Shown: piece by piece, positions 10,687 to 33,006 of the stretch
How positions within the stretch are numbered: position 1 is the first letter of the stretch
How the letters are laid out: every line of letters begins with the position of its first letter
Assembly (NCBI GenBank): GCA_038046425.1
Contig: JBBSWG010000014.1
Location: 1 to 49,081 of the forward strand
DNA: 49,081 nt
Origin: Nanobdellota archaeon
GTDB lineage: Archaea > Nanobdellota > Nanobdellia > Woesearchaeales > GW2011-AR9
Direction of reading: 5' to 3'
Notes under the pieces: generated by a model
What the model was told of the DNA's origin: nothing
Seen by the model: the letters and a program-made list of their open reading frames with translations, nothing else
The model's database searches: none
Program-made: the position numbers and the translations under genes

Positions 10687-10723
10687 TAGGGGTACGTTGA
10701 GAAATAAGAATATTTACGCTTAA

Positions 10724-17132: not shown

Positions 17133-17723
17133 CTAGCACAGATACAGCACGCTTTCTACCGTTCCCACTTCCGTGCTCAAAGGAAAAGCATCCGAGCTAT
17201 CCCTGGCTTTCGTTGCCGGACAGCCTATTCCCCGCCGTACTGGCGGATCGAGCAGGGCCACAACGCCAAACGGCTCCAGCAGCGAGACATTAAGATCATA
17301 ATTTATGTTCCACTTCCCTAAAGTCTGCTCCAGCAGTTCTTCTACTTGCTCCCGCAGAAATATACAGCTATGCTGCTGATTACAGCGGTACCGGGAATAG
17401 CCGCCCGGTCTGGTGTCATAATATTGAGCACAGTCTTCCAGTATATCCTTGCCGAGGCGCGGAAGAGAACCGCTGGGAGAATTACCACCTGCTTGCGGTA
17501 TACAGCCTTGCTCACCGAACTCGCCAGCTTCAGCCGCCGTCGTTTTGAGTATGGCACTCAGCGTACTCTGCGCTAACAGTTCCCGCTGCACCGTCACTTT
17601 TCCTTCCTTCTTCTTTTCCTGCAGGGCAAATTTAGTCATGAACAGCAGGCCCAAAGTAATGAGAATGACAATCACTACCAGTCCTGCCGCTTCCATTTGT
17701 GCCCGTTTTCGGGTGTGTTTCAT
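17133..17723 (-). CDS. small exported protein with a pilin-like (class III signal-like) N-terminus
   Basis: MKHTRKRAQ/MEAAGLVVIVILITLGLLF: a short basic head, then AQ, then a hydrophobic helix. Its start overlaps the upstream stop by 4 nt (ATGA). Confidence 0.45.
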   Translation of the reverse strand: MKHTRKRAQMEAAGLVVIVILITLGLLFMTKFALQEKKKEGKVTVQRELLAQSTLSAILKTTAAEAGEFGEQGCIPQAGGNSPSGSLPRLGKDILEDCAQYYDTRPGGYSRYRCNQQHSCIFLREQVEELLEQTLGKWNINYDLNVSLLEPFGVVALLDPPVRRGIGCPATKARDSSDAFPLSTEVGTVESVLYLC

Positions 17724-18211
17724 GAGTACACCCCCACTTCCACGTAACCGTAACTGTAATAGGGCTCTCCTCCTGCCAGACTATCATCCCGTAACGTCAC
17801 CACAAAAAAAGCAGGATGATAATTCTTTGCCTGCTCCCTCTTCTGGGCATAAAGATAATAAACTTTCTCTTCCGGATAAAGAGCATGAATGGTGATATTG
17901 GAAAACGAGAACAGCTGGAAATAATATCCCTCTAAATGCTCCTGCATCGTTCCGTTAGCCTGACGCAACTTCATGACATCAATACAGTTATCTTCCGGTT
18001 CAGCTTCACCTTTGCTGCACAGCAGTTCCGGCAGGAAGAGCACGTTTAAGGTGGTATCAATGGTCCTCGCTACGGCCAGCTCTTTTCCCCGTTCTTTGAT
18101 TGCTGATTTCTGATACTGGTAATAGAAGATGATGCCTACCGTCAGCAGGATAAAAAATATGAAAAGGATGGCGATGGTTTCCGTAAGCTGGATTTGGCTG
18201 CGGCGGTTCAT
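17720..18211 (-). CDS. small exported protein with a pilin-like N-terminus
   Basis: MNRRSQ/IQLTETIAILFIFFILL: a basic head, Q, IQLTE (a Glu near +5) and a hydrophobic helix. Confidence 0.5.
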   Translation of the reverse strand: MNRRSQIQLTETIAILFIFFILLTVGIIFYYQYQKSAIKERGKELAVARTIDTTLNVLFLPELLCSKGEAEPEDNCIDVMKLRQANGTMQEHLEGYYFQLFSFSNITIHALYPEEKVYYLYAQKREQAKNYHPAFFVVTLRDDSLAGGEPYYSYGYVEVGVYS

Positions 18212-18237
18212 GGTTAATAGTGGGATAGATTACTGGT

Positions 18238-19377
18238 TTAATAGAGCTGGAGGCAGTTATTGAAGCTGAGCTGTTCGTTATCCTGTCTGATCTGCCGGGC
18301 TGAGGAAAGTAAGTCTAAACAGCTAGCCGGTGTCTCTAAACAGGCTCCTGCCGTATTCTGATGAGCTTGTAAAGCTTGTTGGAGAGCAGTAAGGTATGGT
18401 TTACAGGACTGCCTCAAGCTGGGGCTGGGATGAGCTTCATAATAGGCCAGTATCTCCTGCAGTTTCCCCCCGGCTATAGCTGTCGTAATTTCCTTACCTC
18501 CATAAATCTCATTAAGGTACTGTAAGCGCTGGAAAGCTTTCTGCATGTTGCATTCATAGAGTTCCGCGTTTTGAGCAAAAATGGCGGCATAACGGGCAGC
18601 ATCCCGTTCTCCCCCCAGAGAAATAATGCTCGCTTTCCCTCTTCTTTGCCATCGCTCGTTCTTTTTTTGATAATATTCAACTTGGTCTTTTCCGGAGAAG
18701 ACCACAGCCGTGACCACTTCATCATCCAGTAAGCGTACTTTTTCTGGGACGAGGGCCTGTTCTTGAATCACTCCACCATTGCCACCAACAAAATCAATAA
18801 AACGAACTTGTCGGTTCTGGCCAGGGTCAACCGCTTGGAGCTGGCTAGGGCTTACGGCCAGCGTATTGATCCGGAAGCGCGTGGCCATATCCGGTCTAGT
18901 CTCTTCCAGAAACTCTTCGGCAAAAGGCGTGCTTCCCACCACCACATATTTTATGTCGGGAGAAGTGACAAATAAAAAATCAATGATCTTAAAGGGCAGT
19001 TTATAGGGCAGGCTCCACAGGCTTAGCTGGGTAGCCTGAACTTCCGCCGGGCTGAACAGCGGATGCACAGAATCCTGGACGGAACCTGAACCACCTTTTA
19101 GGCCATACTCACTCACGCCCTCATGACAGAAAAAGGTTAAAGCATACTGGTCAAGGTTTGTATCCACGGTCGTCTTAGTTTTTTCTGAAAGGGAAGCAGC
19201 AGTAAAGATAGATTCAACCATGCGGACAAGGTCCTGACGCAGCGTCTCTTCCGAGCGCTGTTTCTGGGAGAAAATCAGGCTGAAGAAGAAAAGTAAAATG
19301 ACTGCTCCGGCAATAAGGACGTAGATCCAGTGGAAGGTCACTTGGATTTGGGCGTGGGAGTTCATTTCTTCATTCAC
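18238..19377 (-). CDS. exported protein with a pilin-like N-terminus (379 aa)
   Basis: MNEEMNSHAQ/IQVTFHWIYVLIAGAVILLFFF shares the AQ-IQ motif with its neighbours. It sits in the operon with the giant protein. Confidence 0.45.
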   Translation of the reverse strand: MNEEMNSHAQIQVTFHWIYVLIAGAVILLFFFSLIFSQKQRSEETLRQDLVRMVESIFTAASLSEKTKTTVDTNLDQYALTFFCHEGVSEYGLKGGSGSVQDSVHPLFSPAEVQATQLSLWSLPYKLPFKIIDFLFVTSPDIKYVVVGSTPFAEEFLEETRPDMATRFRINTLAVSPSQLQAVDPGQNRQVRFIDFVGGNGGVIQEQALVPEKVRLLDDEVVTAVVFSGKDQVEYYQKKNERWQRRGKASIISLGGERDAARYAAIFAQNAELYECNMQKAFQRLQYLNEIYGGKEITTAIAGGKLQEILAYYEAHPSPSLRQSCKPYLTALQQALQAHQNTAGACLETPASCLDLLSSARQIRQDNEQLSFNNCLQLY

Positions 19378-19382
19378 CCTTC

Positions 19383-19940
19383 TTAATTCCCCCGAGCGAG
19401 CTGAGTATAACTCCCTTTCCCTTCCAGGCGCAATGAAAATTGCCCCTTATTAATCTCCAGGCAGAGAAAGCTCGCACTATCAGGGCTGTCTACGGTAATC
19501 GCAAATACTTTTATAGGTACCGGGCCAGCGGGCTTCAGGAAGACGTTCTCGTCGACGCCGGCATAACCACTTTTACCTTCCTGCTGGGCTTGCTGCGCCT
19601 GTTTCCAGACCGTGCAGGCCAACTGATCCCGGCGACAAAGAGCGGTATATTCTTCCTCCGTAAATGGATAGTTCATATCCACAAAACAAATCTGCTCATA
19701 GCGCGAAGGCAGAGTAAATTCCTCTATCTGCGTGGAGCCGTACTGGGTGTAAATGCGCTTCACCGCACTTTCAATATCATTCTTAAACTGGATGAACTGT
19801 ACCTGTTCGCCCTGCTGCAGGAAATTGCCAATAGCTTTATACCCAAAGATGACGATGAGGGCAAAAGTAATTGCCATGACAACGAAGATGAATACTTGTT
19901 CCACGCCCATCGCTTTTTTATTCCAAAAAATGCTTCGCAT
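19383..19940 (-). CDS. small exported protein with a pilin-like N-terminus
   Basis: MRSIFWNKKAMG/VEQVFIFVVMAITFALIVIFGY: a KK-x-x-G motif followed by a hydrophobic helix with an early Glu. Confidence 0.45.
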   Translation of the reverse strand: MRSIFWNKKAMGVEQVFIFVVMAITFALIVIFGYKAIGNFLQQGEQVQFIQFKNDIESAVKRIYTQYGSTQIEEFTLPSRYEQICFVDMNYPFTEEEYTALCRRDQLACTVWKQAQQAQQEGKSGYAGVDENVFLKPAGPVPIKVFAITVDSPDSASFLCLEINKGQFSLRLEGKGSYTQLARGN

Positions 19941-19943
19941 TTT

Positions 19944-22900
19944 TTATCCTCTTCTTTTTTTGGCCAGTTCCTTTAACTTAGCAAACAAATCCTGGGCTTC
20001 ACTCTTACTGGCAACTTTATGAATACCCTTCCCTTGAGCCTGCCGGGAAATTGCTTCCAACTGGGCAAAGACGCTCTTCTCTTCCGGCCGCAGTCCAGGT
20101 TTGAGCTCCTCTTTATGCTCCGCGTAGACCTCAGCCAGCTGCTGCAGTTTTGGCAAATGTTCAGCTTTTCGTTGCAGCACGTTTTCAATATGGGGGATGC
20201 GGCTAGAGTCTTTAGTAAATTCTCTAAAAATAGTTCCCCGTTGCTGCGCTTTTTCCTTCTCCCGGCGGGCTTTTCTGAGCTGTAACAGTTTTTGTTTCCA
20301 GGGTTCTAGGAGAGAGGTGCGTTCCGCTGCTGGTGCCCGTCCCGCGAGACTAGGCAACGTTGGTGTTCCCCGCTTTCCTGACACTTGCCCAAATTTATAT
20401 AATTTATAGTAGTAGATAATAAGATATCCTGTCCCGGCTGCGACCATCACCAATCCCATAATGAGTAAAATCCAGGCGAGATAATTTGATTTCTGAAGAA
20501 ATGACGGCTCCCCTGGTTCTTTCTTCGGTTTCTCCTCTCCAGGTTCCTGATCTATTTTCACCGGGGCATCAAAGCGGCAGGGATCCTGCGCTTTCCGATA
20601 CTCATCATGATTGCCAAAAGCATCTTGATCGTAATCTTCCTGTCCATCCGCAATACCATCCGTATTAGAGTCCGCCTTCATAAAGTCCAGCTGGCATTCC
20701 GTAGCATGGTACATTTTCTCCCAATAATCCGGCAGGCCATCGTTATCAAAGTCAATGCTGCGGTTAAATTCAGGAGTTTGACCATCGGCACAACCCTGTG
20801 CATCGACAACGTCACCCGCACCCGTAGCGGGACAGAGATCACAACTCGTTCTGTCGCTAATTCCATCGCTGTCCGCATCAGTAAAGGAAATCTGCCGGCT
20901 TCCAGAAATATTCTTGCCAGCATAATTCTCCGCAGTATAACAAAGCCAGCCGTTGCTGGTGAACGCAAGTTGCTGGCCCAAATAATTCTGATTGGCAACG
21001 CAGGAATTTAAGGAAGCATGCTGTCCATACTTGATCTTGCTTACGCCTACAGCATCCTGATAATGCAACTCGGCATTGATCGAGGTACAGGAAGAACTCT
21101 CATTAAGCACGATGTCAATGACCGGAGCTGCTGCCTGCTTACAGAGGGTGTGATTGCTTGACGTTACCAGAACACCATCGCTTTCTGCCGGCAAGCTGAG
21201 CCAGCCGGCTCGATCCTGTACCTGTACCCGTGCTTTATATTTGTGGCTTTCATTTAAGCTGGCAACCGGTATCTCCAGCGGCAGCCCGGCGGACCAGCTA
21301 CCGTTAAGGATGAACGTTCCTCCCAGTGTACCACCTATCGTTTTGCTGGAGCTCGGCAAACTCGCTAAACTGGTGGCAGTTTTATTGCTGATAAACGTGG
21401 TGAGCTCAGGCGTTGATGAAATCTGCAGCCCCAAATCGTAGATTTGGTACAGATAATTGCTGACGTTCTGCTCACCGGTATAAATAAAAATCTGTAAGGC
21501 CGGGCTGCCGCAAGTAAGGTTTCCATCTTCCATCTTCGTAATGTTCGGCGGCGTTAGATCGATGGTAAACCGGGATGTCGCTTCCACCTGATGATCGCCC
21601 AAAGTACAACGTAACGGAATCTGATGATATTTCTCCGTCAATCCATAAAACTCCTGGGTATGGACTTTATCTCCCGTAACCGCCATCAGGATATGCTGTC
21701 CATTGTCCCGCCATTCACAGAGGGCAGACTTGCTGGTCTGAACGGTAACATTCAGGGAGGTGAAAGGTAAATAGTCTCCATCCGGCCAGACCGAGGTAAG
21801 GCCGCCTACCTGGCGGTAATCCACCGTAAAATTGATGGTGCGCAATTCTGAAAAATCGCCGGCCGCATTCCGGCACATCGTCGTCAGGGTAAAATCTTTG
21901 GTTAAGCCGGTAAAGGTGTTAACATTAAATCCCCGGCGATGTTTGGTGTGAAGGATTAAAGGTAAAGAAGGATCAGCTCCCGCCACTTCCCCCTCGGCTC
22001 CGGGAAAGGCAAAATTCATCAACGTGTACTGATCATGGCCAAGATCGCTGTACTTGCAGAGCGTCTTATCGTCAGTTTCTGCCACTACATCAACTTTCGT
22101 ACCCTCTAGCAACAGCGGCGGCTCCGTTTCCGCCTTGGTGATAATAGGGGGAGAAGGATCATACTCTAAATTCATTTTCTGTTGTGGGCCTACCTCTCCA
22201 TCAAGATTCTTACATTTTACATAAAGTGCTTTCACCCCGCCGATTTCTGAGTAGGGGGAAGCACCGCTATTATTGGGAAATGGGGAGAAGAGGTATCTCA
22301 TCTCGGGCGTCGGGGAAAGAACCCGTAAGGCGGGCACGGTATCATAGGTAAATGCCGGCAGAAATTCAAACCGGCATTCCTGCGTCGGCACTTTAGTGAG
22401 GAACTGCCAGTCAAAACTGGGTTTATTGCTGCTGCCCCATTGCTCATCGAGATAGTAATGAAGAAGCGGCTTCTCTAACATGATGCCATAGCCTTCGATG
22501 GACACTGTCCCACACTGGGGTGAATATACTGCCGTCTTCCCTTGATCGGTGGAATAATAACAAATTTCCGTCGAGTTCTCCAGCGTGAAGGTAGAGGAGT
22601 ACTCTTTATAATTTGGACTGCTCAGGTAATAGCACCCCTCGCCCAGACAATAAAACGTTTTATCGCAGGTGAAGCCTTCCGCTGTACATTCAAAATCTAC
22701 CTCGACGGCATCAATAAAGAACTCTTTCCAGCCGAATAAGGTGGGCTTAGCCACTCGTTTTCCTTCCCGCAGCACGATTTGGCTGCTGGGCGGGGTAAAG
22801 TCAACCGTGAAAGAAAAGAAATCTTCATACGTTTCTGGCGTCAATAACTCCCGGCAGATGATTTTATGCTCACCATTGTATTTCCCTTCAATAAAGCCGG

Positions 22901-25900
22901 GGACGAAAGGCGTTTCATGTACTTTTCCCTGCTCGTCGCTCAGGAAGTCAGCGATTTTCTCATTGCTGCTGGTCTTATACAACTCGCAGCGAGCACCAGC
23001 GGCGGTTGCTGTCCGAAACTTAATTTCCGGCGAGGAAACAATGCCCTTCAATGCCGGATGAACAATATCAATGCGCTCTTCTAAATCAAAGGTAAGGCGG
23101 TCCGCTTTCTGATTGGCATTGCCCTGGTTGTCGGTACAGGTTACATTCACGTCATAAATTACGCCCGGCAGATTTTCGTAAACCGCCTCTTTTTTCTGCT
23201 CTTTGGTGAGCGCTTTAACCTGTGTTTCTCCCAGCGGCAGGACGCTGGTTACGATAAATGAGCAGGCCATAGGCTCATTCGTTCCTTCTAAATACACCGT
23301 CAACTTAGTCTTATCCGCGAGCGTTATTTCTTTATGATTGATCTCAAATTGCGGCAAGACATTATCCACAAACACGAACGTTTCCTGGATGTTTTCCTGG
23401 TTGTGGTATTTGTCGGTAGAGTAAAATTTTAGGCGATAAGTCTCGCCGTTGATTTTCTTTTGCAGGAATGCTGACTCTAAAAGATTAACGGTTACCAGTT
23501 CCTGAGTTTGTATTCCGGGATAGGATACCTGGGAATTCCTAAAATCCTCCGTCGTACAGAAACTTTGGGCATCGGCAGCAGCGCTGGTCAGGCAATAATG
23601 GAACGTGCCCAGGGCATTTTTCTGGGAAGGAAAGGGATGGAAATCATCATTCCCCAAAAAAGTTGCGTTGGGAGTGGCGTGTGAGATTACCTGCATCCCT
23701 TCCGGAACGGTTACCGTATGGGGCGGGCTGACATCTAGTTTACAATTTTGTCGCTGGGCACCGCTGGTAAAGCCAGTACAATCATCCTGTCCATCACCAT
23801 CGCCATCTTTAATGCAGGAACCGGGTGAAAAGCTGTCGTGAGCGCCTTGCCAGCTGCAGCGTTTCCAGCTACAGCGGTCAGCAGAGGGAATGATCTCGCC
23901 AAAGGGTGTTCTGTGGATGTTGCTGGAATCACTACCGGAACCAGCACATTCCAGTTCCGTAGTATAGCTATAACAGTTAGCATTTTTGGTGGGCACGTCA
24001 CCACAGGAATTACATTGACTGAGCTCCGAATCAGAAAAACATTTTCCTAAAGCGGAGCAGACTTGCGCGTTACAATAATAATTTTCAAATACGGTAGCTG
24101 TTTTACTGCAACGGGAACATTGGTCGTCATCATCATACTTTTCCTGCACACAGTAGCCATGCCCCGTTTCCGGCGTTACTAAGCCGGGCATATTGAGAAC
24201 ACCGTAATCAATGATTGGTTCCGAGTTAGCAGCAGCGTCAACCCAGGCACATTTCGCACCTAAACAATTGTTAATCGTACAGGCATCATTGCTTTGATAT
24301 TCAAAACAGCTATTGAGTTCCGCACAGCTCGTACAGCCATTGACGATAGATTTTGTATAGTCATAGTAGCAGAAATTAGTAGCCTCTGCCGGATCAGCAG
24401 CCCCGTAACAGGTAAAGCGGGAATAATATAAGCCAAACGGATCGGCAAACAGGTTACAGGGACCGGCATCCTGGCAATCAGCCCTGAACTCGGAGATGGA
24501 GGAACAGAAATAATTCTCGCCGGGGCCGTCACGCCCGGCACAATTTTGCACCGTAGCCAGCTTATTTTCATTGCTGCAAGTGTATACTGTTTTCCGCACA
24601 GCTGTATTCCCCACCAGGCAGAACGTTTCCCAGCCAGCACTTTCATGATAGCGTTCTTCGCATTCTTTATCACCGAGCGTGATGGTTCGTACGGTTTCAG
24701 CTGCTGATTGCTTAGTAGGATATTGTGCTTTGATGCTGTAAGTATAGGTTTGTTCCCATTCGACTTTATCATCAAGGTAGGAATTCTGGGCCGGGGAGAA
24801 GATGAACGGTTCCGGTTCTCCCTCTTCAGTTTGTTTCGTAACCAGATAACCGATCACTTCCGGGCAGGGCTTGAGCCATTCTAAACGAACCTGCTTCTTT
24901 CCCGGCACGTGTTGCAGCGAGAATTGTTCTACGTTCTTCTGCTCCTCAGCTTGTCCTTCGGTACATTCGCCGACATAGGCAGTCAAAAGTAGGTTACCAA
25001 GATCAACCAACTGGCCTGCAGCTACCGTGAATGATTTTTCAGCCTGAAAATTCAAGTGCGTGGCCGTAATGGTGTGCTCCCCTTCCAACATACTTAACTC
25101 AAATGTTCCTATTTCCTGAAGATCATCAGAATATTGTGAATAGCCGCGGAAATTGCCATCAATATAGATTTTAACCCCATATTGCTGCTCATCAATATCA
25201 GCTAGGCTATTCCCATTAGCATCAACCGCTGTTTTTCCTTTTACCCCCTGTACGGCAGCCAGGCTTAACGTAAAGTCTTCCGTCTGCTCGGCCGTGAGCT
25301 GAACTTGCTTTTGCTGGGGCTGATAATTGATCTTGCTGGCGGTGATGGTATATTGTCCTGAGACTAACTCCGTAATCACATAATTTCCGGCCTGGTCACT
25401 ATAAACCTGCCCGCTGGCTGGACCGGTCCAGGAGATGGTAACTCCAGAAAGGCCAGTTCCAGTTAAAGAATCAGTAACCGTCCCTAAAACTTTCAACGCC
25501 CCGCCAGCGCTCAACGTTACCGTTTTCTCAGCTACTTGGCCCGAGCCCAGAGAAATGGTGGCTGAAGCTGATTGAAACCCCGATTTTGTGACCGTAACCA
25601 GATAGCTGGAAGGGTTTAACCCCGTGAATTCAACCCGGCCATCACTTCCCGTGGTTCCCGACTGGGCTACGCCCTGAATTTGTACTAAAGCGTCAACAAC
25701 CGGTCCCTGAGCATCCCGCACCGTAACTCTGATTATCCCTGGCTGTACTTCAACTTGACAGAGCTGCTGGTTACAGCTGGCTACCGTCATACCAACAGGA
25801 TTATCATACTGCACGACAGGATTAGGAGGGGGAAAACCTAATTTCTTAGCCATATCATCACACTGAAACTTATTTAATCCAAACTGACAGAATTGGTTGC

Positions 25901-26276
25901 TGATTTTACAACAGCCGGGTGAGCAGTAAAAGTTGTATTGGTTTTCTGGTACAGCTACTCCTCCCAGATTTTGACATTTTCCCAGGGCATGCTGCTGACA
26001 ATCAGCAGAACAGGTCACGAGCTCACACTCCGGAACGATACTGCAATCCTGCCCCGGCAGAAAATATTGCGACAGGCTGCAGCCAGGATGAGTATCACAA
26101 TCTTCCGCCGCTTCCGTGTCAAGTGTATCGAAAACGCAGTAGAGATCTTCGCTGGCGCTAGGGTAGATGTAACAGCCCGCTACTTGTGCCTGAGAATTAA
26201 AAGCGTTAAGAAGGAAGAATAAAACTACCAGTAGTACTAAAGCTACAATAATCGGGCCTCTTTTTAGTACGCTCAT
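19944..26276 (-). CDS. giant (2110 aa) Cys-rich cell-surface protein with a C-terminal TM anchor and cytoplasmic tail
   Basis: N-terminal signal. CarboxypepD_reg-like beta-sandwich repeats at about 25250-25740. Long Cys-rich tracts. Aspartate-rich repeats like thrombospondin type 3 at 20577-20885. TM helix at 20406-20483. A 153-aa K/E/Q-rich tail. Confidence 0.85.
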   Translation of the reverse strand: MSVLKRGPIIVALVLLVVLFFLLNAFNSQAQVAGCYIYPSASEDLYCVFDTLDTEAAEDCDTHPGCSLSQYFLPGQDCSIVPECELVTCSADCQQHALGKCQNLGGVAVPENQYNFYCSPGCCKISNQFCQFGLNKFQCDDMAKKLGFPPPNPVVQYDNPVGMTVASCNQQLCQVEVQPGIIRVTVRDAQGPVVDALVQIQGVAQSGTTGSDGRVEFTGLNPSSYLVTVTKSGFQSASATISLGSGQVAEKTVTLSAGGALKVLGTVTDSLTGTGLSGVTISWTGPASGQVYSDQAGNYVITELVSGQYTITASKINYQPQQKQVQLTAEQTEDFTLSLAAVQGVKGKTAVDANGNSLADIDEQQYGVKIYIDGNFRGYSQYSDDLQEIGTFELSMLEGEHTITATHLNFQAEKSFTVAAGQLVDLGNLLLTAYVGECTEGQAEEQKNVEQFSLQHVPGKKQVRLEWLKPCPEVIGYLVTKQTEEGEPEPFIFSPAQNSYLDDKVEWEQTYTYSIKAQYPTKQSAAETVRTITLGDKECEERYHESAGWETFCLVGNTAVRKTVYTCSNENKLATVQNCAGRDGPGENYFCSSISEFRADCQDAGPCNLFADPFGLYYSRFTCYGAADPAEATNFCYYDYTKSIVNGCTSCAELNSCFEYQSNDACTINNCLGAKCAWVDAAANSEPIIDYGVLNMPGLVTPETGHGYCVQEKYDDDDQCSRCSKTATVFENYYCNAQVCSALGKCFSDSELSQCNSCGDVPTKNANCYSYTTELECAGSGSDSSNIHRTPFGEIIPSADRCSWKRCSWQGAHDSFSPGSCIKDGDGDGQDDCTGFTSGAQRQNCKLDVSPPHTVTVPEGMQVISHATPNATFLGNDDFHPFPSQKNALGTFHYCLTSAAADAQSFCTTEDFRNSQVSYPGIQTQELVTVNLLESAFLQKKINGETYRLKFYSTDKYHNQENIQETFVFVDNVLPQFEINHKEITLADKTKLTVYLEGTNEPMACSFIVTSVLPLGETQVKALTKEQKKEAVYENLPGVIYDVNVTCTDNQGNANQKADRLTFDLEERIDIVHPALKGIVSSPEIKFRTATAAGARCELYKTSSNEKIADFLSDEQGKVHETPFVPGFIEGKYNGEHKIICRELLTPETYEDFFSFTVDFTPPSSQIVLREGKRVAKPTLFGWKEFFIDAVEVDFECTAEGFTCDKTFYCLGEGCYYLSSPNYKEYSSTFTLENSTEICYYSTDQGKTAVYSPQCGTVSIEGYGIMLEKPLLHYYLDEQWGSSNKPSFDWQFLTKVPTQECRFEFLPAFTYDTVPALRVLSPTPEMRYLFSPFPNNSGASPYSEIGGVKALYVKCKNLDGEVGPQQKMNLEYDPSPPIITKAETEPPLLLEGTKVDVVAETDDKTLCKYSDLGHDQYTLMNFAFPGAEGEVAGADPSLPLILHTKHRRGFNVNTFTGLTKDFTLTTMCRNAAGDFSELRTINFTVDYRQVGGLTSVWPDGDYLPFTSLNVTVQTSKSALCEWRDNGQHILMAVTGDKVHTQEFYGLTEKYHQIPLRCTLGDHQVEATSRFTIDLTPPNITKMEDGNLTCGSPALQIFIYTGEQNVSNYLYQIYDLGLQISSTPELTTFISNKTATSLASLPSSSKTIGGTLGGTFILNGSWSAGLPLEIPVASLNESHKYKARVQVQDRAGWLSLPAESDGVLVTSSNHTLCKQAAAPVIDIVLNESSSCTSINAELHYQDAVGVSKIKYGQHASLNSCVANQNYLGQQLAFTSNGWLCYTAENYAGKNISGSRQISFTDADSDGISDRTSCDLCPATGAGDVVDAQGCADGQTPEFNRSIDFDNDGLPDYWEKMYHATECQLDFMKADSNTDGIADGQEDYDQDAFGNHDEYRKAQDPCRFDAPVKIDQEPGEEKPKKEPGEPSFLQKSNYLAWILLIMGLVMVAAGTGYLIIYYYKLYKFGQVSGKRGTPTLPSLAGRAPAAERTSLLEPWKQKLLQLRKARREKEKAQQRGTIFREFTKDSSRIPHIENVLQRKAEHLPKLQQLAEVYAEHKEELKPGLRPEEKSVFAQLEAISRQAQGKGIHKVASKSEAQDLFAKLKELAKKRRG

Positions 26277-26303
26277 GATACAGTCAGAATTAAATCGTCT
26301 TCG

Positions 26304-26311
26304 TTTATAAA
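26304..26311 (-). promoter_or_regulatory. TATA-box-like element for the giant gene
   Basis: TTTATAAA is centred about 31 nt upstream of the minus-strand ATG at 26276, which suggests a leaderless or short-leader transcript. Confidence 0.45.
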
Positions 26312-26331
26312 GGTGCTGGGTGTAATAAAAC

Positions 26332-26877
26332 TCATTTCCCCCGCGACATCCTGCGCAGCAGGGTAAACACGTCTTTCGTCTCCCGCTTCGTGAAAGGAAG
26401 ATAAACCGGTCCTTCTTTCTTTTCCCCTAAAAGCTGCTCTAAACGCTCTAGGGCTTTCTGCTGTGATGGGGAAAGAAACCGTCGTTTCCGCTGCTCCTGC
26501 ACGACCAGGACAAGTTTCCGGAAATTTTCCGGAAGAAGAACTTTCGTAGGCGCTAGGCCCCAAGAGGCCAGTATCGTCTCCATTTTTTGATGTTTGGCTT
26601 TATCTTTATGCTCAGCCTGCTGACGCTGGATTCTCCTTTTGACCCCTGGCGGGGATGGGTACGGGTAATACCACCGCTTTTCTTCTGTCTGCTCTTCCGG
26701 CAGGGGCAAGGAAAGCGATCTTTCTGGTGCGAATAAAAATTTCCAGAGAAGATAAGCGAGGGCCAGGCCCAGTAGAAAGAGAATGAGCAGGGTTGCTGCG
26801 GTCATGAGCGAGAAGAAATAAGTTGGAGAATATAATTGTTTCCCTAACTGTGCTATCCCAATGTTATTTAACTCCAC
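26332..26877 (-). CDS. single-pass membrane protein with a basic helical tail
   Basis: 181 aa with a GTG start. The N-terminus ...GIAQLGKQ... is followed by a TM helix, then a K/R/E/Q-rich tail resembling the tail of the giant protein. The start codon is uncertain. Confidence 0.45.
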   Translation of the reverse strand: MELNNIGIAQLGKQLYSPTYFFSLMTAATLLILFLLGLALAYLLWKFLFAPERSLSLPLPEEQTEEKRWYYPYPSPPGVKRRIQRQQAEHKDKAKHQKMETILASWGLAPTKVLLPENFRKLVLVVQEQRKRRFLSPSQQKALERLEQLLGEKKEGPVYLPFTKRETKDVFTLLRRMSRGK

Positions 26878-26884
26878 TCCCTAA

Positions 26885-26897
26885 ATCTTTAAATATT
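26885..26897 (+). promoter_or_regulatory. TATA-box-like element for the zinc-ribbon gene
   Basis: ATCTTTAAATATT lies about 30 nt upstream of ATG 26923. The same ATCTTTAAA core is seen upstream of mcm (6371) and at 32920-32933. Confidence 0.4.
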
Positions 26898-26922: not shown

Positions 26923-27312
26923 ATGTCGAACATCCAGTTGCGCAGCTGTGAACTCTGTAAGGCGGAAGTGCCTGCTAGTTCAGTTAAATTGTATCCTAAA
27001 AGCAATGAGCAGACCTGGATGCTCTGTGAGCCCTGCTGCGAAAAGATGAAACAGCGCCGAGCGGTAGGACAACCAGCTTCTAAACAAGAACAGCAGCAGC
27101 CGATTCGTAATATCGTGCAGCGAACCTTGGCCAAGGTGAAATCTGCAGCCCAGTCTGAGTCTGGCTCTGATTCTTCTGCCGCGGCGGAATACCTGCAGTT
27201 GCATTGCCGGCGCTGCAATTATCATTATCGGGTGGACGAGAAGAAGGCCGGTACGCGGGTGAATCCGGCCTGCCCCTATTGCGGGAAAGGGGATCAAGTG
27301 GAGAGGAAGTGA
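26923..27312 (+). CDS. double zinc-ribbon protein, paralog 1
   Basis: CELC...CEPCC at the N-terminus and CRRCNYHYRVDEKKAG...CPYCGKGDQ at the C-terminus. It is clearly a paralog of 33007-33306. Confidence 0.7.
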   Translation: MSNIQLRSCELCKAEVPASSVKLYPKSNEQTWMLCEPCCEKMKQRRAVGQPASKQEQQQPIRNIVQRTLAKVKSAAQSESGSDSSAAAEYLQLHCRRCNYHYRVDEKKAGTRVNPACPYCGKGDQVERK

Positions 27313-27691: not shown

Positions 27692-29923
27692 ATGAAAAAG
27701 AGGAAGAATAATCGTTTTAGTATCCTGATAACAGTATTAGTGGTGATTATTTTGGGCTTTCTACTGCTCAAATTCCTGCCAAAGCCCCTCGTTCTAGTTC
27801 CTACGCCAGAACAGAGGGTAGAACAGTTGCTATCTCCAGCACTCCAGACAGATTATTCGCCTCCAGCCTCTTTACAGAATAACAGTTTCTATCGTGCTGG
27901 CTTTACTCCTGCGGAAACTTTGAAAAGTTATATGCTAACGTTCACCAATGATAAAAATTATACCGATGCCTACCAGTATTTGATCCAGTTCCAGCAAGGG
28001 TTGAATGGTATTGGTTTAAACAGTGCTCTAGAAATCGATAAGGCTTTGGCAGAATCGCTGGCAATTGCTGCCGCAAATGTAGAATCAGTTGGAGAAAATG
28101 ATAAAGAAGCCTGTTCCTACTTCAACTCCCTGTTGAATCCTTCCTTACTGGTAATGGATTTAACGCTCTGGACGGGAAAATCAGAGATTTATTCAGCTTT
28201 CCAGAAATATCGGAACATTGGAATCCAATGTGAGTTTTACTTTCCCGCTTTGCAGCACGGAATGTTTACCTACGATGTCCGCACGGGAAAAATGGTACAA
28301 AGAACTCTGTTCTGCGATCCCTCGGAGGGAAAAGTAAAGTGTTTTAGTGTCTGGAATTACTTTTGGAAATTTGCAGCGGATCCTGCCGCTGGTGCTGTTA
28401 ATTATGGCGCTGGCTGCAGCCTAACCGATTGGATGCGACAGGGGTTTGTCTGCGTGAATGGGATTGATCTACGTGGTTCAACCAGCGGGATTAGGCAGCT
28501 GAAATTAAAGTATTATCAATATCTTAAAATCCATGATCAAATATTTCCTTTGAGTAATTCTTCTTATGTCGTAGAAGAAGATGTAACGGATTCTTTCCAC
28601 AATGCCCTGGGAGCGAGCGGGAGAAATATTCTCAATAATGTGAAACGCAAATGTTCCCAAATAAAGGATAAAGCATCGTTGTATGGTAACTTGGCAGCAG
28701 GAATTTCAGATTTATATGAGGAAGGTTCTTCGTCTATTACTGGCGGAGTAGTAGGGATAGACACTACCCTAACTGAAACCGAAGAAGACCTGCAACAGCA
28801 GTATGAAAAAGCCATGCTGTTTGCCTCTTTGTTTTCCGAAGCCTGTATGCAGGACTTTAGTAATTTGGGGAATAGCCTTGGTGGTGGAATAGATAGTTTA
28901 GGGGGAAGAAACCTGAACACACCACTTTCCTGTATCATCTCTGATCTTGCTGGAAGTGGTTCGTCACAGTTACGAGAAACTGTTGAATGCTTTGCCCAGT
29001 TTGGACAGCAGCAGAAAATGGGGGCTCTGCTCAGTACCAGCGACAGTGTGCAAGGGATTCCTGATCCTAAATGTAAGATGTCTGATGCACGAGCATCAAA
29101 AGAAGCTTTGGAAAGTCTAACGCCACCATCTCCTATGGAAAAGACCCTGTATGAGGGTCTAAAAGGGAAAAGCGACTTTAGAGTTGTAGATACCAATTTA
29201 TTTCCCTATTTATGTGAGACGTGTAATAAGCCTAATATGGGTGCTTTTACGCCGATTGCTATAACTAAAGATGAAAACGGTAACACTATAGAAGCGAAAC
29301 AAGATGGGCCTATTATCTATAAAGAGGGGTACCAATATGATAGAGAGACTATAAAGCACGAAGAATGGCATGCATCGTGTCCCCAGTGCACTGAGGAACA
29401 GGTAAAGGAGTTAACGAAGAAAGGAGAAGATCCACCTAAAAAAACAGTGACCCCAGCAGAAGCAAAAAAGTACTGTAAAGATTGTACTACTTTGCCTGAT
29501 GAAAAGCCTAAGGAGGGTTATCCTGAGCCAGAAGGGGAAGATGCATGTTCTGCTAATGCACAGAGAATAGAAGCATTTCTAAACTGTATGGAACCAAAAA
29601 GTCAAGAAACTTTCTCCCAGCCTCCGGGAAACCGGCCAACACCTGATCCTGCCCCTGACGATGTCGGACAAGATATTACTTCCTGTGCGGAAGCGGTCTC
29701 AGCAGGCGGAATGTTCAGTAATCCTGTGGTGGGCTCACGGGACGATTGTATGTTTGGTGATCAGGATTGTAATATCCCTGGCGCTTATTACGGAGGAATA
29801 ATTCAAGGAAAGATAAATAAAAAGTGCCAGTATGCGCAAGACGATAGTGGTTTGCAATGTCCTTCTGATTTAGGTATGGGGACGGGAGTTGGAATGGAAG
29901 CGATTCCAGAAGGTTCTTCTTAG
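27692..29923 (+). CDS. large N-terminally anchored extracellular protein with a Cys-rich C-terminus
   Basis: 743 aa with an N-terminal TM/signal anchor RFSILITVLVVIILGFLLL. A TATA-like CATATAAAG lies about 28 nt upstream. No family recognised. Confidence 0.6.
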   Translation: MKKRKNNRFSILITVLVVIILGFLLLKFLPKPLVLVPTPEQRVEQLLSPALQTDYSPPASLQNNSFYRAGFTPAETLKSYMLTFTNDKNYTDAYQYLIQFQQGLNGIGLNSALEIDKALAESLAIAAANVESVGENDKEACSYFNSLLNPSLLVMDLTLWTGKSEIYSAFQKYRNIGIQCEFYFPALQHGMFTYDVRTGKMVQRTLFCDPSEGKVKCFSVWNYFWKFAADPAAGAVNYGAGCSLTDWMRQGFVCVNGIDLRGSTSGIRQLKLKYYQYLKIHDQIFPLSNSSYVVEEDVTDSFHNALGASGRNILNNVKRKCSQIKDKASLYGNLAAGISDLYEEGSSSITGGVVGIDTTLTETEEDLQQQYEKAMLFASLFSEACMQDFSNLGNSLGGGIDSLGGRNLNTPLSCIISDLAGSGSSQLRETVECFAQFGQQQKMGALLSTSDSVQGIPDPKCKMSDARASKEALESLTPPSPMEKTLYEGLKGKSDFRVVDTNLFPYLCETCNKPNMGAFTPIAITKDENGNTIEAKQDGPIIYKEGYQYDRETIKHEEWHASCPQCTEEQVKELTKKGEDPPKKTVTPAEAKKYCKDCTTLPDEKPKEGYPEPEGEDACSANAQRIEAFLNCMEPKSQETFSQPPGNRPTPDPAPDDVGQDITSCAEAVSAGGMFSNPVVGSRDDCMFGDQDCNIPGAYYGGIIQGKINKKCQYAQDDSGLQCPSDLGMGTGVGMEAIPEGSS

Positions 29924-29932: not shown

Positions 29933-30859
29933 TTACCTTTTTTTCTCCATTGTTGCTCGTTGCAACTCTTCAAGGCATTCCCTATTCCCGGCACAGATTT
30001 GGTTTATTAATGCTTTGGTGTTATCCTGATTGATATTGTAGTTCTGAAGCAGCTCTAAGCAGGAGGCATTATTCCGGCACTCAGCATCGATGATTTCCCG
30101 ATAGAAAGGTATTCTAAGAGTATCAGCGGGGTAATCTATAGCCGGAAAATACTTCCCTTCTTGAATATTCTCTCTAATGTTCTTTATTACATCAGGAAAA
30201 CCTTTCCATTCAGTTATGATTTCTCTCGCTTTATCTTTATTTCCAAACAGCCATTCTATTTTGCCGGCAAGAAGAATCTTTCCGTCCCGCAAGGCCCGAT
30301 CTCGTAGGGCGGGTAGTTCATCATCGGAAGTTAATTTAATTACTTCCTCATCATAGGACCGCTTATAAAATAATTCCCGCGCTTTGTTGATGTCTCCTAA
30401 ATAAACGTAAACTCTGGCAGCATCAACTTCTCGTTGGAAGTCTTTTTGTTCATAGTGTTGTATCGCTTCCTGCATCTTCTGAGCATGCTCTCTACTTCCG
30501 GGCCGATAAAAACAGTTAGCAAACTTCACATCGGCAGCAATTACTTCATCCAGTAACATCCAGCGAGCATGATCCCAGTGCATCCCGCTGTAGAGATAAG
30601 TTTTATCAGCTATATCTTTGAACTTTCTCTGATGCAGGTCGAGGAGTTTGCTCTTATTACAATCTATTTTAGGAGGTTTTTCCCTAAGAAACTCCGGCAC
30701 GATCCGAAGGTTTTTGATATATTGTTCGTATTCTTCTTGTTTTGGCCTGCTGGGAGCAATAAGCGGCGAGGGAGTGGATTGTGCCAGAGATGTGAAGATG
30801 GACCAACTTCCCGCCACCAGAAGTGCTACTAACCCTAAGCTGAGGCGGCGTTTTTCCAT
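29933..30859 (-). CDS. secreted helical-repeat (TPR-like) protein
   Basis: 308 aa. Signal peptide LGLVALLVAGSWSIFTSLAQS, helical-repeat-like segments and C-terminal Cys pairs. Confidence 0.55.
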   Translation of the reverse strand: MEKRRLSLGLVALLVAGSWSIFTSLAQSTPSPLIAPSRPKQEEYEQYIKNLRIVPEFLREKPPKIDCNKSKLLDLHQRKFKDIADKTYLYSGMHWDHARWMLLDEVIAADVKFANCFYRPGSREHAQKMQEAIQHYEQKDFQREVDAARVYVYLGDINKARELFYKRSYDEEVIKLTSDDELPALRDRALRDGKILLAGKIEWLFGNKDKAREIITEWKGFPDVIKNIRENIQEGKYFPAIDYPADTLRIPFYREIIDAECRNNASCLELLQNYNINQDNTKALINQICAGNRECLEELQRATMEKKR

Positions 30860-32873: not shown

Positions 32874-33006
32874 TCCTTTCCTATGATCTCTATTTTTCCG
32901 GCTCAACTATCCGATGCACCAGCAATATCTTTAAATACTTCCGCCCTGTTTATCCTAACTTATTATTACAAATATCAAAAACATTATCCTAAAAAAGGTG
33001 AATTTC

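What the first reader, a model, noticed from the sequence alone, without database searches (positions are those of the whole stretch)
17133..26877. An operon encoding a 2110-aa surface giant together with four or five small proteins bearing pilin-like N-termini
- Six co-directional genes are packed with gaps of 3-55 nt or a 4-nt overlap.
- The giant has a signal peptide, CarboxypepD_reg-like sandwiches, very long Cys-rich tracts, calcium-repeat-like Asp clusters, a C-terminal TM helix and a 153-aa charged tail.
- The four downstream proteins (185, 379, 163 and 196 aa) all begin with a short basic head and then a hydrophobic helix. Three share (A/S)Q-(I/M)(Q/E) right at the junction: RRSQ-IQLTE, SHAQ-IQVTF and KRAQ-MEAAG. 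This resembles archaeal class III (prepilin-type) signals with Q near +1 and an early Glu.
- The upstream 181-aa protein also has ...IAQ-LGKQ... before its helix.
- This looks like a minor-pilin set paired with a giant adhesin, a plausible cell-cell attachment apparatus. I do not recognise any of the components beyond domain level.
Basis: partly seen in the sequence, partly recalled or inferred. Interest (0 to 1): 0.7.

Follow-up and report, generated by a model that had tools for sequence, protein, structure and literature searches.

The report
Woesearchaeal pilin-like genes with giant surface protein
A groundwater DPANN archaeon (Woesearchaeota) carries a tightly packed gene block for a 2,110-residue, disulfide-rich membrane-anchored surface protein followed by four proteins with type IV pilin-type signal sequences; the block is kept intact in about 80 related species and is uncharacterised, so it is a good candidate for the structure these tiny symbionts use to contact other cells.

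Summary

The four downstream proteins (185, 379, 163 and 196 aa) carry archaeal class III (prepilin-type) signals.
- In more than 200 homologues a variable 4-39 aa leader ends in [KR][GA]. In three families an invariant Gln and a hydrophobic helix follow.
- This matches the [KR][GA]|Q[IVL] site of Methanococcus Epd pilins cut by EppA.
- AlphaFold2 gives a long N-terminal helix plus a 4-stranded sheet for p163, and a helix plus a large head for p379. Foldseek, Pfam, NCBIfam and PDB profiles match no known pilin.

The upstream 181-aa protein is not pilin-like. It is a paralogue of the giant's TM segment and cytoplasmic tail.

Giant-185-379-163-196 keeps the same order in 57 of 58 adequately covered Woesearchaeota genomes. 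It is usually the first half of a cluster of about 17 genes with ten more pilin-like genes.

No assembly ATPase, platform protein or prepilin peptidase lies in the window, the sequence up to 10 kb beyond each end, or the 81 related loci screened.

Verdict: a new variant of an archaeal type IV filament module.

The parts
26332..26877 (-). 181-aa single-pass membrane protein ('up181'). It is a short paralogue of the giant's TM segment and cytoplasmic tail, and it is not pilin-like. The true start is probably Met25 (nt 26805).
   Evidence: blastp matches (E = 8e-11 to 5e-3; six of the ten at or below 8e-5) fall on the C-terminal TM+tail part of the 135-418-aa genes that sit directly upstream of the giant in other genomes. 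Those genes in turn match the giant's aa 34-195 and about 1905-2109. Alignments begin at about its residues 23-33, close to Met25. An AATATTTAAA box at 26888-26897 lies only 11 nt from the GTG.
19944..26276 (-). 2110-aa giant surface protein. It comprises a Sec-type signal, a Cys-rich N-domain, two CarboxypepD_reg domains, a long Cys-rich and Ig-like ectodomain, an Asp-rich Ca-type motif cluster, a TM helix and a 153-aa basic cytoplasmic tail.
   Evidence: Full-length relatives of 2050-2250 aa occur only in Woesearchaeota/Nanoarchaeota, at 37-64% identity. All 76 Cys are conserved in at least 90% of the 24 aligned family members.
26304..26311 (-). TTTATAAA, a TATA-box-like element 28 nt upstream of the giant's ATG. 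It may be an internal archaeal promoter giving a near-leaderless mRNA.
   Evidence: Read directly from the sequence. This is inference only.
25752..26177 (-). N-terminal Cys-rich domain of the giant (aa 34-175, 16 Cys). It is also present in the small paralogues encoded upstream of the giant in other genomes.
   Evidence: blastp of the small paralogues against the giant.
25257..25739 (-). Two CarboxypepD_reg (prealbumin-like) beta-sandwich domains, aa about 180-340.
   Evidence: PF13620, E = 5.3e-29, two matched stretches.
23556..24662 (-). Central Cys-rich tract of the giant (aa 539-907, 32 conserved Cys).
20607..20879 (-). Asp-rich DxDxDG / DxDxD motif cluster (aa 1800-1890), of the calcium-binding type.
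   Evidence: No Pfam family matched at E < 0.1.
20409..20489 (-). C-terminal transmembrane helix of the giant (aa 1930-1956).
   Evidence: hydropathy.
19947..20405 (-). 153-aa basic cytoplasmic tail of the giant (35 K/R, 18 D/E). Its last 60 residues or so are among the better conserved parts of the protein.
19383..19940 (-). p185: a pilin-like protein with a class III-type N-terminus, NKKA|MGVEQVFIF. It has no Gln at +1 but a conserved Gln at +5.
   Evidence: 69 of 76 family members have [KR][GA] next to the helix. Relatives keep a basic KKG/KKA leader upstream, which supports the 185-aa start over the 175-aa gene call.
18238..19377 (-). p379: a large pilin-like protein, MNSHA|QIQVTFHW. It has a 49-residue N-terminal helix, then a beta domain and a helical bundle.
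   Evidence: AlphaFold2 pLDDT 91.9. No PDB fold match.
17720..18211 (-). p163: a pilin-sized protein, MNRRS|QIQLTE, with an invariant Glu at +6.
   Evidence: helix 2-57 plus 4 antiparallel strands, pLDDT 77.7. 740 representative clusters match at E <= 1e-10.
17133..17723 (-). p196: a pilin-like protein, MKHTRKRA|QMEAAG, with a Glu at +3 that is invariant in the 44-sequence alignment and 6 conserved Cys. It overlaps p163 by 4 nt, and that overlap is conserved across genomes.
   Evidence: It shares only the N-terminal region of about 67 residues with p163 (hhalign probability 85%).

Best explanation
This block is the first half of a surface-structure gene cluster conserved across the order Woesearchaeales (DPANN, class Nanoarchaeia).

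**The four small proteins (p185, p379, p163, p196).** They are type IV pilin-like subunits made with class III signal peptides.
- A prepilin peptidase encoded elsewhere is inferred to remove the short basic leader at [KR][GA]|Q. For the three Gln+1 proteins this is the EppA type of site.
- That leaves a hydrophobic N-terminal helix.
- A type IV filament machinery encoded elsewhere is inferred to pack those helices into a short pilus-like or pseudopilus stalk.
- The four proteins are non-interchangeable orthologue families, each single-copy and always in one fixed order. They are therefore most likely minor (initiating, tip or base) subunits rather than the bulk pilin.

**The giant.** The co-transcribed 2110-aa protein is exported by Sec.
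- It stays anchored by its C-terminal TM helix, with a conserved basic tail in the cytoplasm.
- It displays a rigid ectodomain of about 1900 aa that probably holds about 38 disulfides.
- It is inferred to dock onto or be organised by the pilin-like complex, forming the cell-contact apparatus of these episymbionts.

**Shown:** gene layout, signal-motif conservation, predicted topology, synteny.
**Inferred:** cleavage, assembly, physical association and the attachment function.
For: **Signal.**
- In the p379 family (117 of 120 homologues anchored) and the p163 family (102 of 120), the leader is 4-39 aa long. Column entropy is 3.1-3.9 bits at positions -8 to -4.
- Position -1 is G or A in 117/117 p379 homologues, and G, A or S in 102/102 p163 homologues. 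Positions -2 and -3 are mostly K or R.
- Gln at +1 and the following helix are nearly invariant.
- An independent set of 81 genome loci gives the same result for p196 (60 of 62 with Gln at +1). p185 has the [KR][GA] motif in 69 of 76.
- The site equals the RA|QI, KG|QV, KG|QL and KG|QI sites of M. maripaludis EpdA-E, whose peptidase EppA requires Gln at +1 (PMC4371748).

**Topology.** Each protein has a single N-terminal hydrophobic segment and an even number of Cys, most of them conserved across the family. This fits an exported, disulfide-bonded head.

**Fold.** p163 has helix 2-57 plus a 4-stranded antiparallel sheet. p379 has helix 15-63 plus a globular head, with pLDDT 91.9.

**Unit.** 57 of 58 loci with enough flank keep giant-185-379-163-196 in order at 34-58% identity, although the flanking genes differ. 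The 4-nt p163/p196 overlap is conserved.

**Context.**
- In 47 of 67 loci the block runs straight into about ten further genes. Their proteins each have a single N-terminal hydrophobic helix, and in the three loci read through nearly all begin with a KKG/KKA-type head before it.
- Archaeal type IV filament loci are known to combine several minor pilins with large adhesin-like proteins. Standalone pilin loci are also known (PMC4858521; preprint 10.64898/2026.04.22.720090).
- FlaI/FlaJ-type genes are reported for Woesearchaeota (PMC6642349).
Against: - No curated pilin model is matched. Pfam Class_IIIsignal, Pilin_N and the NCBIfam models fail on the window proteins and on 144 N-termini from the cluster.
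- PDB sequence profiles find nothing.
- Foldseek finds no pilin: best E = 0.11 for p163 and 0.035 for p379, with TM-scores of 0.25 or less.
- No secretion ATPase motif was found in the window or the 81 related loci screened. No polytopic platform or peptidase candidate was seen in the four complete clusters examined or in the family-wide hydropathy counts. Pfam found none in the window or the sequence up to 10 kb beyond each end.
- One groundwater study states that type IV pilus components are missing in DPANN (10.1101/2020.05.14.094862).
- The early acidic residue sits at +3 or +6, not at +5 as in EppA substrates. p185 lacks Gln at +1.
- The window copies have atypical residues at the site: S at -1 in p163 and H at -2 in p379.
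- The giant has its own membrane anchor. It is evenly conserved along its whole length, unlike fast-evolving host-recognition adhesins.
Confidence: 0.55

Rival explanations
1. **Bindosome-like, non-filament use of class III signals.** The four proteins are cleaved by a prepilin peptidase but remain as a membrane-embedded, surface-exposed complex. It scaffolds or positions the giant in the envelope, comparable to the Sulfolobus bindosome, and no extended pilus forms.
For: - The giant is itself membrane-anchored.
- There are fourteen different single-copy pilin-like families, and no major pilin was identified among them.
- No ATPase is linked to the cluster.
- Class III signals on non-pilin surface proteins are reported to be widespread in archaea (preprint 10.64898/2026.04.22.720090).
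Against: - The second half of the cluster contains 90-130-aa proteins of the size of Epd/Tad-type major pilins.
- No substrate-binding domain was detected.
- The known bindosome still needs its own ATPase and platform protein.
Confidence: 0.2
2. **Uncleaved signal-anchor proteins.** The four are ordinary type II (N-in) membrane proteins that form a complex with the giant. The [KR][GA]Q motif serves another purpose, such as topology or helix packing, and no type IV filament machinery is involved.
For: - No pilin family or fold match was found.
- No peptidase or ATPase was found nearby.
- One paper claims that DPANN lack type IV pilus parts.
- A loose 'basic residue plus hydrophobic stretch' rule is not specific: 10 of 45 window ORFs pass it.
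Against: - Conservation starts abruptly at positions -3 and -2, after leaders of very variable length and sequence. Position -1 is restricted to G, A or rarely S, and +1 is an invariant Gln. That is the signature of a peptidase recognition site.
- The pattern matches experimentally mapped EppA sites.
Confidence: 0.13
3. **Core cell-envelope (S-layer-like) complex.** The cluster encodes a housekeeping wall or envelope scaffold of Woesearchaeales rather than a host-attachment device.
For: - The cluster is present in essentially every Woesearchaeota genome sampled.
- The giant's length is narrowly conserved at 2050-2250 aa, and all 76 of its Cys are conserved.
- There is a weak partial match to an anammox S-layer glycoprotein model, confined to the CarboxypepD_reg region (41 bits against a cut-off of 1400).
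Against: - The S-layer match is far below the cut-off and covers only a common domain.
- The giant is Cys-rich and carries a cytoplasmic tail.
- Expression level and lattice formation are unknown.
Confidence: 0.1

Closest known systems
Epd pilus / archaeal type IV filament 'system 1' (clade 1) of Methanococcus maripaludis and relatives, with EppA-processed pilins
   Same: - It has the same processing-site pattern, [KR][GA]|Q[IVLM], with an obligatory Gln at +1.
- It has many distinct pilin-like proteins: 14 predicted EppA substrates in M. maripaludis, and about 14 pilin-like families in the full Woesearchaeal cluster.
- Several minor pilins are co-encoded with large adhesin-like proteins.
- Some of its pilin genes stand apart from the machinery.
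   Different: - The pilin-like proteins here match no Pfam or NCBIfam pilin model, including Class_IIIsignal.
- The acidic residue is at +3 or +6, not +5.
- No ATPase, split platform protein, EppA or MinD-like gene lies in or near the cluster.
- The large protein has no DUF2341/PilY-like domain.
- Unlike the Epd adhesins, it has a C-terminal TM anchor and a cytoplasmic tail.
Bacterial minor-pilin operons with a large adhesin (P. aeruginosa fimU-pilVWXY1E), and the T2SS GspH-I-J-K pseudopilus tip
   Same: - Four different small pilin-like proteins, one of them much larger, are encoded in a fixed order next to a large Ca-motif-bearing surface protein.
   Different: - No sequence or fold homology was detected.
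- PilY1 has no membrane anchor and rides on the pilus tip, whereas the giant here is a single-pass membrane protein.
- This is an archaeal class III signal without the bacterial G|F/M...E5 pattern.
SPEARE and other giant surface proteins of DPANN archaea (Nanohaloarchaeota)
   Same: - They share the overall topology: a very large extracytoplasmic part, a TM helix near the C-terminus and a C-terminal cytoplasmic region.
- They occur in a host-dependent DPANN lineage (PMC6642349).
   Different: - The giant has no protease, laminin-G, toxin or restriction-endonuclease domain. Its tail is a 153-aa basic segment.
- The giant is highly conserved rather than variable.
- The giant is strictly linked to pilin-like genes.
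Sulfolobus bindosome (class III-signal surface proteins assembled by the Bas system)
   Same: Class III signal peptides are used on proteins that are probably not bulk filament subunits.
   Different: - There are no sugar-binding domains.
- There is no linked BasE/BasF-type ATPase or platform protein.

Membership tests
Archaeal class III signal peptide (type IV prepilin-like) proteins | A short, positively charged leader ends in [KRDE][GA(S)] immediately before a hydrophobic stretch of about 20 residues near the N-terminus. | tested here: met
   Position -1 is G or A in 117/117 p379 homologues and G, A or S in 102/102 p163 homologues. Positions -2 and -3 are mostly K or R. Leaders are 4-39 aa long and unconserved. 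The window copies read RRS|Q, SHA|Q, KRA|Q and KKA|M.
Archaeal class III signal peptide (type IV prepilin-like) proteins | The leader is cleaved by an A24-family prepilin peptidase (PibD, FlaK or EppA). | not testable with these tools
   This needs N-terminal proteomics or an in vitro cleavage assay.
Archaeal class III signal peptide (type IV prepilin-like) proteins | The protein is recognised by curated pilin or class III signal models (Pfam Class_IIIsignal, Pilin_N; NCBIfam pilin models). | tested here: not met
   No pilin family was found among the six window proteins or among 144 N-termini from all pilin-like families of the cluster. Only scattered noise hits appeared, such as ComGC in 2 of 144 at E = 0.06.
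Type IV pilin fold | A long N-terminal alpha-helix of about 50 residues packs against an antiparallel beta-sheet head. | tested here: inconclusive
   The AlphaFold2 secondary-structure order fits for p163: helix 2-57, then 4 strands at 103-161, pLDDT 77.7. It partly fits for p379: helix 15-63, then a beta domain and a helical bundle, pLDDT 91.9. Foldseek against the PDB gives no pilin and no hit below E = 0.03.
Type IV filament (TFF) system | The genome encodes a FlaI/PilB-type ATPase, a FlaJ/PilC/TadC platform protein and a prepilin peptidase. | tested here: inconclusive
   None was found in the 49-kb window (Pfam), in the sequence up to 10 kb beyond each end, or by Walker-motif screening of the window and 81 related loci. 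Hydropathy checks of the cluster families found no polytopic candidate. The rest of each genome could not be searched. The literature conflicts: PMC6642349 and the 2026 preprint report such genes in Woesearchaeota or DPANN, while 10.1101/2020.05.14.094862 says they are missing.
Epd / system-1 pilus (EppA substrates) | Gln at +1, which EppA requires. | tested here: met
   Gln at +1 occurs in 55/57 (p379), 62/63 (p163) and 60/62 (p196) of the motif-bearing homologues. The comparison is with PMC4371748, Table 1. It is not met for p185, where +1 is M, L or V.
Epd / system-1 pilus (EppA substrates) | A Glu at +5, as described for EppA substrates (PMC4371748). | tested here: not met
   The consensus N-termini are QIEVTFNW (p379), QxxMTETIA (p163) and QMEMIGL (p196). 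The acidic residue is at +3 or +6. No pilin or class III signal model was matched in Pfam.
Epd / system-1 pilus (EppA substrates) | The locus contains an ATPase, two platform genes, EppA and DUF2341 (PilY-like) adhesins. | tested here: not met
   Apart from the giant's CarboxypepD_reg domains, no cluster gene has any Pfam hit.
PilY1-type pilus-tip adhesin | A soluble secreted adhesin with a PilY1 beta-propeller or DUF2341 domain and no membrane anchor. | tested here: not met
   The giant has a TM helix at aa 1930-1956 and a 153-aa tail. Pfam, NCBIfam and PDB sequence searches find only CarboxypepD_reg.
SPEARE proteins | A cytoplasmic type III restriction-enzyme region, laminin-G domains and a protease domain. 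| tested here: not met
   none of these domains is present. Only the membrane topology is shared.
S-layer glycoprotein | A match to a known S-layer family above its cut-off. | tested here: not met
   NF052345 scores 41 bits against a cut-off of 1400, and only over aa 252-428.

The most novel reading that the evidence does not exclude
The block, together with its ten-gene continuation in other genomes, encodes a previously undescribed organelle that defines the Woesearchaeales lineage. About 14 dedicated pilin-like subunits would build a fixed-composition stalk around a rigid giant transmembrane protein held by about 38 disulfides. The giant's conserved cytoplasmic tail would couple the structure to the cell interior. 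On this reading it is a host-contact or cytoplasmic-bridge device, possibly for uptake of macromolecules or DNA, and not an ordinary adhesive pilus. It might be assembled by machinery unlike the canonical ATPase/platform pair.
Probability: 0.2. Interest if true: 0.85.

Novelty: new variant of a known kind. Interest (0 to 1): 0.62.

Why it matters
Woesearchaeota are among the most abundant DPANN archaea in groundwater and sediments. None has been grown in pure culture, and how they contact their hosts is unknown.

This work defines a concrete set of genes present in nearly every sampled genome:
- one giant protein in which every cysteine is conserved;
- four obligatorily linked pilin-like proteins;
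- usually ten more pilin-like proteins downstream.

All of these are currently annotated as hypothetical proteins or by a generic domain name only.

The set gives direct targets for metaproteomics (N-terminal processing), cryo-ET and immunolabelling, and complex prediction.

It would also supply candidate pilins for DPANN filament ATPases. Makarova et al. [quoted passage not shown]

If the apparatus mediates host contact, its unusually strong conservation would point to a conserved, generic target or mechanism. That differs from the strain-specific recognition expected of an adhesin.

Tried and rejected
1. **Curated families.** Pfam and NCBIfam scans of the six proteins, and of 144 N-termini from all pilin-like cluster families, gave only noise.
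2. **PDB sequence profiles.** Searches with the p163, p196 and p185 families and with the giant found nothing relevant.
3. **Foldseek.** Both AlphaFold2 models were searched against the PDB. There was no hit below E = 0.03 and no pilin. Fold-level membership is therefore unproven.
4. **Homology among the four.** p163 and p196 share only the N-terminal region of about 67 residues (hhalign probability 85%). p185 against p163 gave probability 8%. I rejected the idea that the four are recent paralogues.
5. **The giant as a class III substrate.** It starts MxxKKRG followed by a hydrophobic run. I rejected this in favour of a Sec/SPase I signal. The leader is only 3-7 aa, the hydrophobic region is followed at once by small-x-small residues (SQA|Q, ISA|E) and the Cys-rich domain, and no long helix follows.
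6. **The upstream 181-aa protein as a fifth pilin.** Rejected.
7. **Assembly machinery.** I searched the window, the contig extensions and the related loci using a Walker-motif regex, TM counts and Pfam. None was found. A whole-genome search was not possible with these tools.
8. **The neighbouring 743-aa Cys-rich protein (27692-29923).** It showed no blastp similarity to the 500-820-aa protein family usually encoded upstream of the cluster in other genomes.
9. **Literature.** Searches for a description of this cluster (Woesearchaeota with pilin, type IV pili or class III signal; DPANN with prepilin peptidase or EppA) found none.
10. **Exact look-up of the 379-aa product.** It failed because gene callers use the ATG start, which gives 375 aa.

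Full report
**What is in the window.** The window is archaeal. It encodes MCM, Cdc6/Orc1, both PolD subunits, TBP and an RNase P p30 subunit. Exact-match look-ups place it in a groundwater metagenome from Hainich well H51 and in MAG GCA_964469545.1, labelled 'Nanoarchaeota archaeon'.

**The six genes.** All lie on the minus strand.
- 26877-26332: 181 aa
- 26276-19944: 2110 aa
- 19940-19383: 185 aa
- 19377-18238: 379 aa (375 aa from the ATG that gene callers use)
- 18211-17720: 163 aa
- 17723-17133: 196 aa

The gaps are 55, 3, 5 and 26 nt, followed by a 4-nt overlap. The block ends convergently against PolD DP2.

**The giant.**
- It has an N-terminal signal and two CarboxypepD_reg domains (E = 5e-29).
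- It has 76 Cys, concentrated at aa 1-200 and 500-900.
- DxDxDG motifs lie at aa 824, 1800 and 1842, with further DxDxD motifs at 1869 and 1881.
- A TM helix spans aa 1930-1956, followed by a 153-aa tail with 35 K/R and 18 D/E.
- Nothing else is recognised by Pfam, NCBIfam or PDB sequence search.
- Full-length relatives occur only in Woesearchaeota/Nanoarchaeota. They are 2050-2250 aa long and 37-64% identical. Where named, they are called only 'carboxypeptidase regulatory-like domain-containing protein'.
- In a 24-sequence alignment all 76 Cys are conserved in at least 90% of sequences. Conservation is even along the whole length, including the end of the cytoplasmic tail.
- Its N-terminus (MxxKKRG, a hydrophobic run, then small-x-small residues and the Cys-rich domain) reads as a Sec/SPase I signal, not a prepilin signal.
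- The protein is therefore a rigid, probably heavily disulfide-bonded, single-pass membrane protein with a conserved cytoplasmic tail.

**N-termini of the four small proteins.** Each has one N-terminal hydrophobic segment. The comparative data decide the question.
- The 379-aa protein has at least 289 homologues and the 163-aa protein at least 175.
- A profile of the 163-aa family finds 740 representative clusters at E <= 1e-10 among 1.84 billion proteins.
- With sequences aligned on the conserved core, leaders are 4-39 residues long and unconserved (3.1-3.9 bits of entropy at positions -8 to -4).
- Positions -3 and -2 are mostly K or R.
- Position -1 is G or A in 117/117 p379 homologues, and G, A or S in 102/102 p163 homologues.
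- Gln at +1 and the following helix are almost invariant.
- An independent set of 81 genome loci gives the same picture. Gln at +1 occurs in 55/57 (p379), 62/63 (p163) and 60/62 (p196) of the motif-bearing homologues. p185 has [KR][GA]|(M/L/V)GVGQVF.
- This is the pattern tabulated for the EppA-dependent Epd pilins of Methanococcus maripaludis: RA|QI, KG|QV, KG|QL and KG|QI. EppA requires Gln at +1 (PMC4371748).
The junction lies before the Q, not after it.
- A loose 'basic residue plus hydrophobic stretch' rule is unspecific in this window (10 of 45 ORFs). The Gln+1 form is found only in these three adjacent genes.

**Structure.**
- AlphaFold2 on a 43-sequence alignment gives p379 a confident model (pLDDT 91.9, pTM 0.86). 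It has a 49-residue N-terminal helix (15-63), a beta-rich domain (68-250) and a C-terminal helical bundle (260-372).
- On 48 sequences p163 is predicted with moderate confidence (pLDDT 77.7). It has helix 2-57, two short helices and four antiparallel strands at 103-161. That is the secondary-structure order of a type IV pilin.
- Foldseek against the PDB returns nothing significant for either model.
- PDB sequence profiles return nothing.
- Pfam and NCBIfam pilin models return nothing, even on 144 N-termini from the wider cluster.
- These are therefore pilin-like by signal and by topology, but they do not belong to any curated pilin family.
- The four are not recent paralogues. p163 and p196 share only the N-terminal region of about 67 residues. 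p185 shows nothing beyond the hydrophobic helix.
- Each has an even number of Cys, most of them conserved across its family, which fits exported, disulfide-bonded heads.

**The upstream 181-aa protein.** It is not pilin-like.
- It matches (E = 8e-11 to 5e-3, six of ten hits at or below 8e-5) the C-terminal TM+tail part of the 135-418-aa genes that lie directly upstream of the giant in other genomes.
- Those genes are miniature versions of the giant. They carry a Sec signal, the giant's N-terminal Cys-rich domain (aa 34-195), a TM helix and the giant's tail (aa about 1905-2109).
- The window copy has kept only the TM helix and the tail.
- Alignments begin at about its residues 23-33, close to Met25. 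A TATA-like AATATTTAAA sits only 11 nt from the annotated GTG. The 'IAQ-LGKQ' stretch is therefore probably not even translated.
- A second TATA-like box (TTTATAAA, 26304-26311) lies 28 nt upstream of the giant's ATG.

**Conservation as a unit.**
- A scan of one genome per GTDB species with the p379 family returned 80 loci, all Woesearchaeota/Nanoarchaeia. Several ENA records are mistitled 'Methanosarcinales'.
- The giant, p185, p379, p163 and p196 are found in 75, 79, 79, 75 and 74 of 81 loci, at 34-58% identity. The misses are mostly at contig ends or gaps.
- Of 58 loci with enough flank, 57 have all five genes in the same order and on the same strand. The p163/p196 4-nt overlap is conserved.
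- Flanking genes differ between genomes.

**The block is half of something larger.** Clustering the ORFs of these loci gives a common arrangement of about 17 co-directional genes.
- First come a Cys-rich protein of 500-820 aa, the mini-giant, the giant, and p185-p379-p163-p196.
- Ten more genes follow (about 118, 116, 270-680, 330, 100, 220, 135, 160, 110 and 390 aa).
- Each of their products has a single N-terminal hydrophobic helix. In the loci read through, nearly all begin with M..KKG or KKA before it.
- An RPA-like gene usually comes next.
- The second half follows p196 directly in 47 of 67 loci. It is separated in 20, and it is absent from this window.
- Hydropathy checks found no polytopic membrane protein among the cluster families. 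No secretion-ATPase Walker motif occurs in the window or the related loci.
- Extending the window's contig by up to 10 kb at each end shows no filament machinery either.

**Most likely mechanism.**
- The four proteins are class III-signal, type IV pilin-like subunits.
- A prepilin peptidase encoded elsewhere cuts at [KR][GA]|Q. The Gln+1 rule points to an EppA-like enzyme.
- The freed hydrophobic helices are assembled by a filament ATPase and platform protein encoded elsewhere.
- The four are distinct, single-copy, fixed-order orthologue families that stay attached to the giant even when the cluster splits. They are best read as minor subunits (initiator, tip or base) that organise or dock the giant.
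- The giant itself stays anchored in the membrane and presents an ectodomain of about 1900 aa.
- In host-dependent DPANN cells the obvious role is cell-cell contact.
- Cleavage, assembly, association and function are all inferences.
- I put about 0.8 on 'class III/pilin-like proteins' and 0.55 on the whole model.

**Rivals.**
- A bindosome-like, non-filament complex (0.2).
- Uncleaved signal-anchor proteins (0.13).
- A housekeeping envelope scaffold (0.1).

**Comparison with what is known.**
- Archaeal type IV filament loci with several minor pilins and large adhesin-like proteins are established, as are standalone pilin loci (PMC4858521; preprint 10.64898/2026.04.22.720090).
- 'System 1' (Epd-like) is reported in some DPANN. 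FlaI/FlaJ-type genes are reported in Woesearchaeota (PMC6642349). One groundwater study states that type IV pilus parts are missing in DPANN.
- Makarova et al. noted nanoarchaeal filament ATPases whose pilins could not be found.
- My literature searches found no description of this cluster.
- It differs from the Epd system in five ways. It has no match to any Pfam or NCBIfam pilin model. Its acidic residue is not at +5. It has no linked machinery. It has no PilY/DUF2341 domain. Its giant has a TM anchor and a cytoplasmic tail, a topology shared with nanohaloarchaeal SPEARE proteins, though none of their domains are present.
- I class it as a new variant of a known kind.

**Limits.**
- The presence of a peptidase, an ATPase and a platform protein elsewhere in these genomes could not be tested with the tools available.
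- No multimer prediction was possible.
- The p163 model is only moderately confident.

Noticed in passing
window 10109-10723: This AT-rich intergenic region (GC 0.357 for 10-12 kb, against about 0.46 elsewhere) lies directly upstream of cdc6/orc1. MCM and both PolD subunits are nearby, so it is a likely replication origin. Only short AT-rich direct and inverted repeats were seen.
   Followed up: partly
window 26923-27312 (+) and 32998-33306 (+): Two paralogous small zinc-ribbon ORFs (129 and 102 aa) share an N-terminal CxxC...CxxCC/CxxC and a C-terminal C[KR]RCNY..R.D..KAG......CPYCG. One sits in the divergent promoter region of the operon. Their function is unknown.
   Followed up: no
window 27692-29923 (+): A 743-aa Cys-rich protein with an N-terminal anchor or signal has no Pfam or NCBIfam match. 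It is transcribed divergently from the operon and showed no blastp similarity to the 500-820-aa protein usually encoded upstream of the cluster. It is followed by other secreted proteins (29933-30859; a protein with three CarboxypepD_reg stretches at 31783-32679).
   Followed up: partly
L021:12359-18637, L031:12300-19851, L076:12283-18155 (and 47 of 67 loci): In most Woesearchaeota the five-gene block continues with about ten more genes. Each product has a single N-terminal hydrophobic helix, and nearly all begin with a KKG/KKA-type head. They include 90-130-aa proteins of the size of Epd/Tad-type major pilins. An RPA-like OB-fold gene and a YdjM-family gene follow. This second half is not in the window.
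   Followed up: partly
L021:1816-2883, L008:1955-3019, L076:2178-3248: 'Mini-giant' genes lie directly upstream of the giant. They encode a Sec signal, the giant's N-terminal Cys-rich domain, a TM helix and the giant's cytoplasmic tail. Length varies from 135 to 418 aa between genomes through loss of the ectodomain.
   Followed up: yes
window 36829-38970 (+): A 713-aa fusion combines a glutamine-amidotransferase/asparagine-synthase-like part with a diphthamide-synthase (Diphthami_syn_2) part. The same fusion is present next to the cluster in L008.
   Followed up: no
L011-L013, L018-L020 and many other loci (record titles): Many GTDB representative MAGs deposited as 'uncultured Methanosarcinales archaeon' (ENA TPA assemblies) carry this Woesearchaeota-specific cluster at 40-50% identity. 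Their record titles are probably taxonomically wrong.
   Followed up: no
window 5785-6225 (+): A 146-aa ORF begins MNNMKPKS|LKIQIGIFFILAGLL, a basic head followed by a hydrophobic helix. It may be another class III-like or signal-anchored protein outside the block.
   Followed up: no
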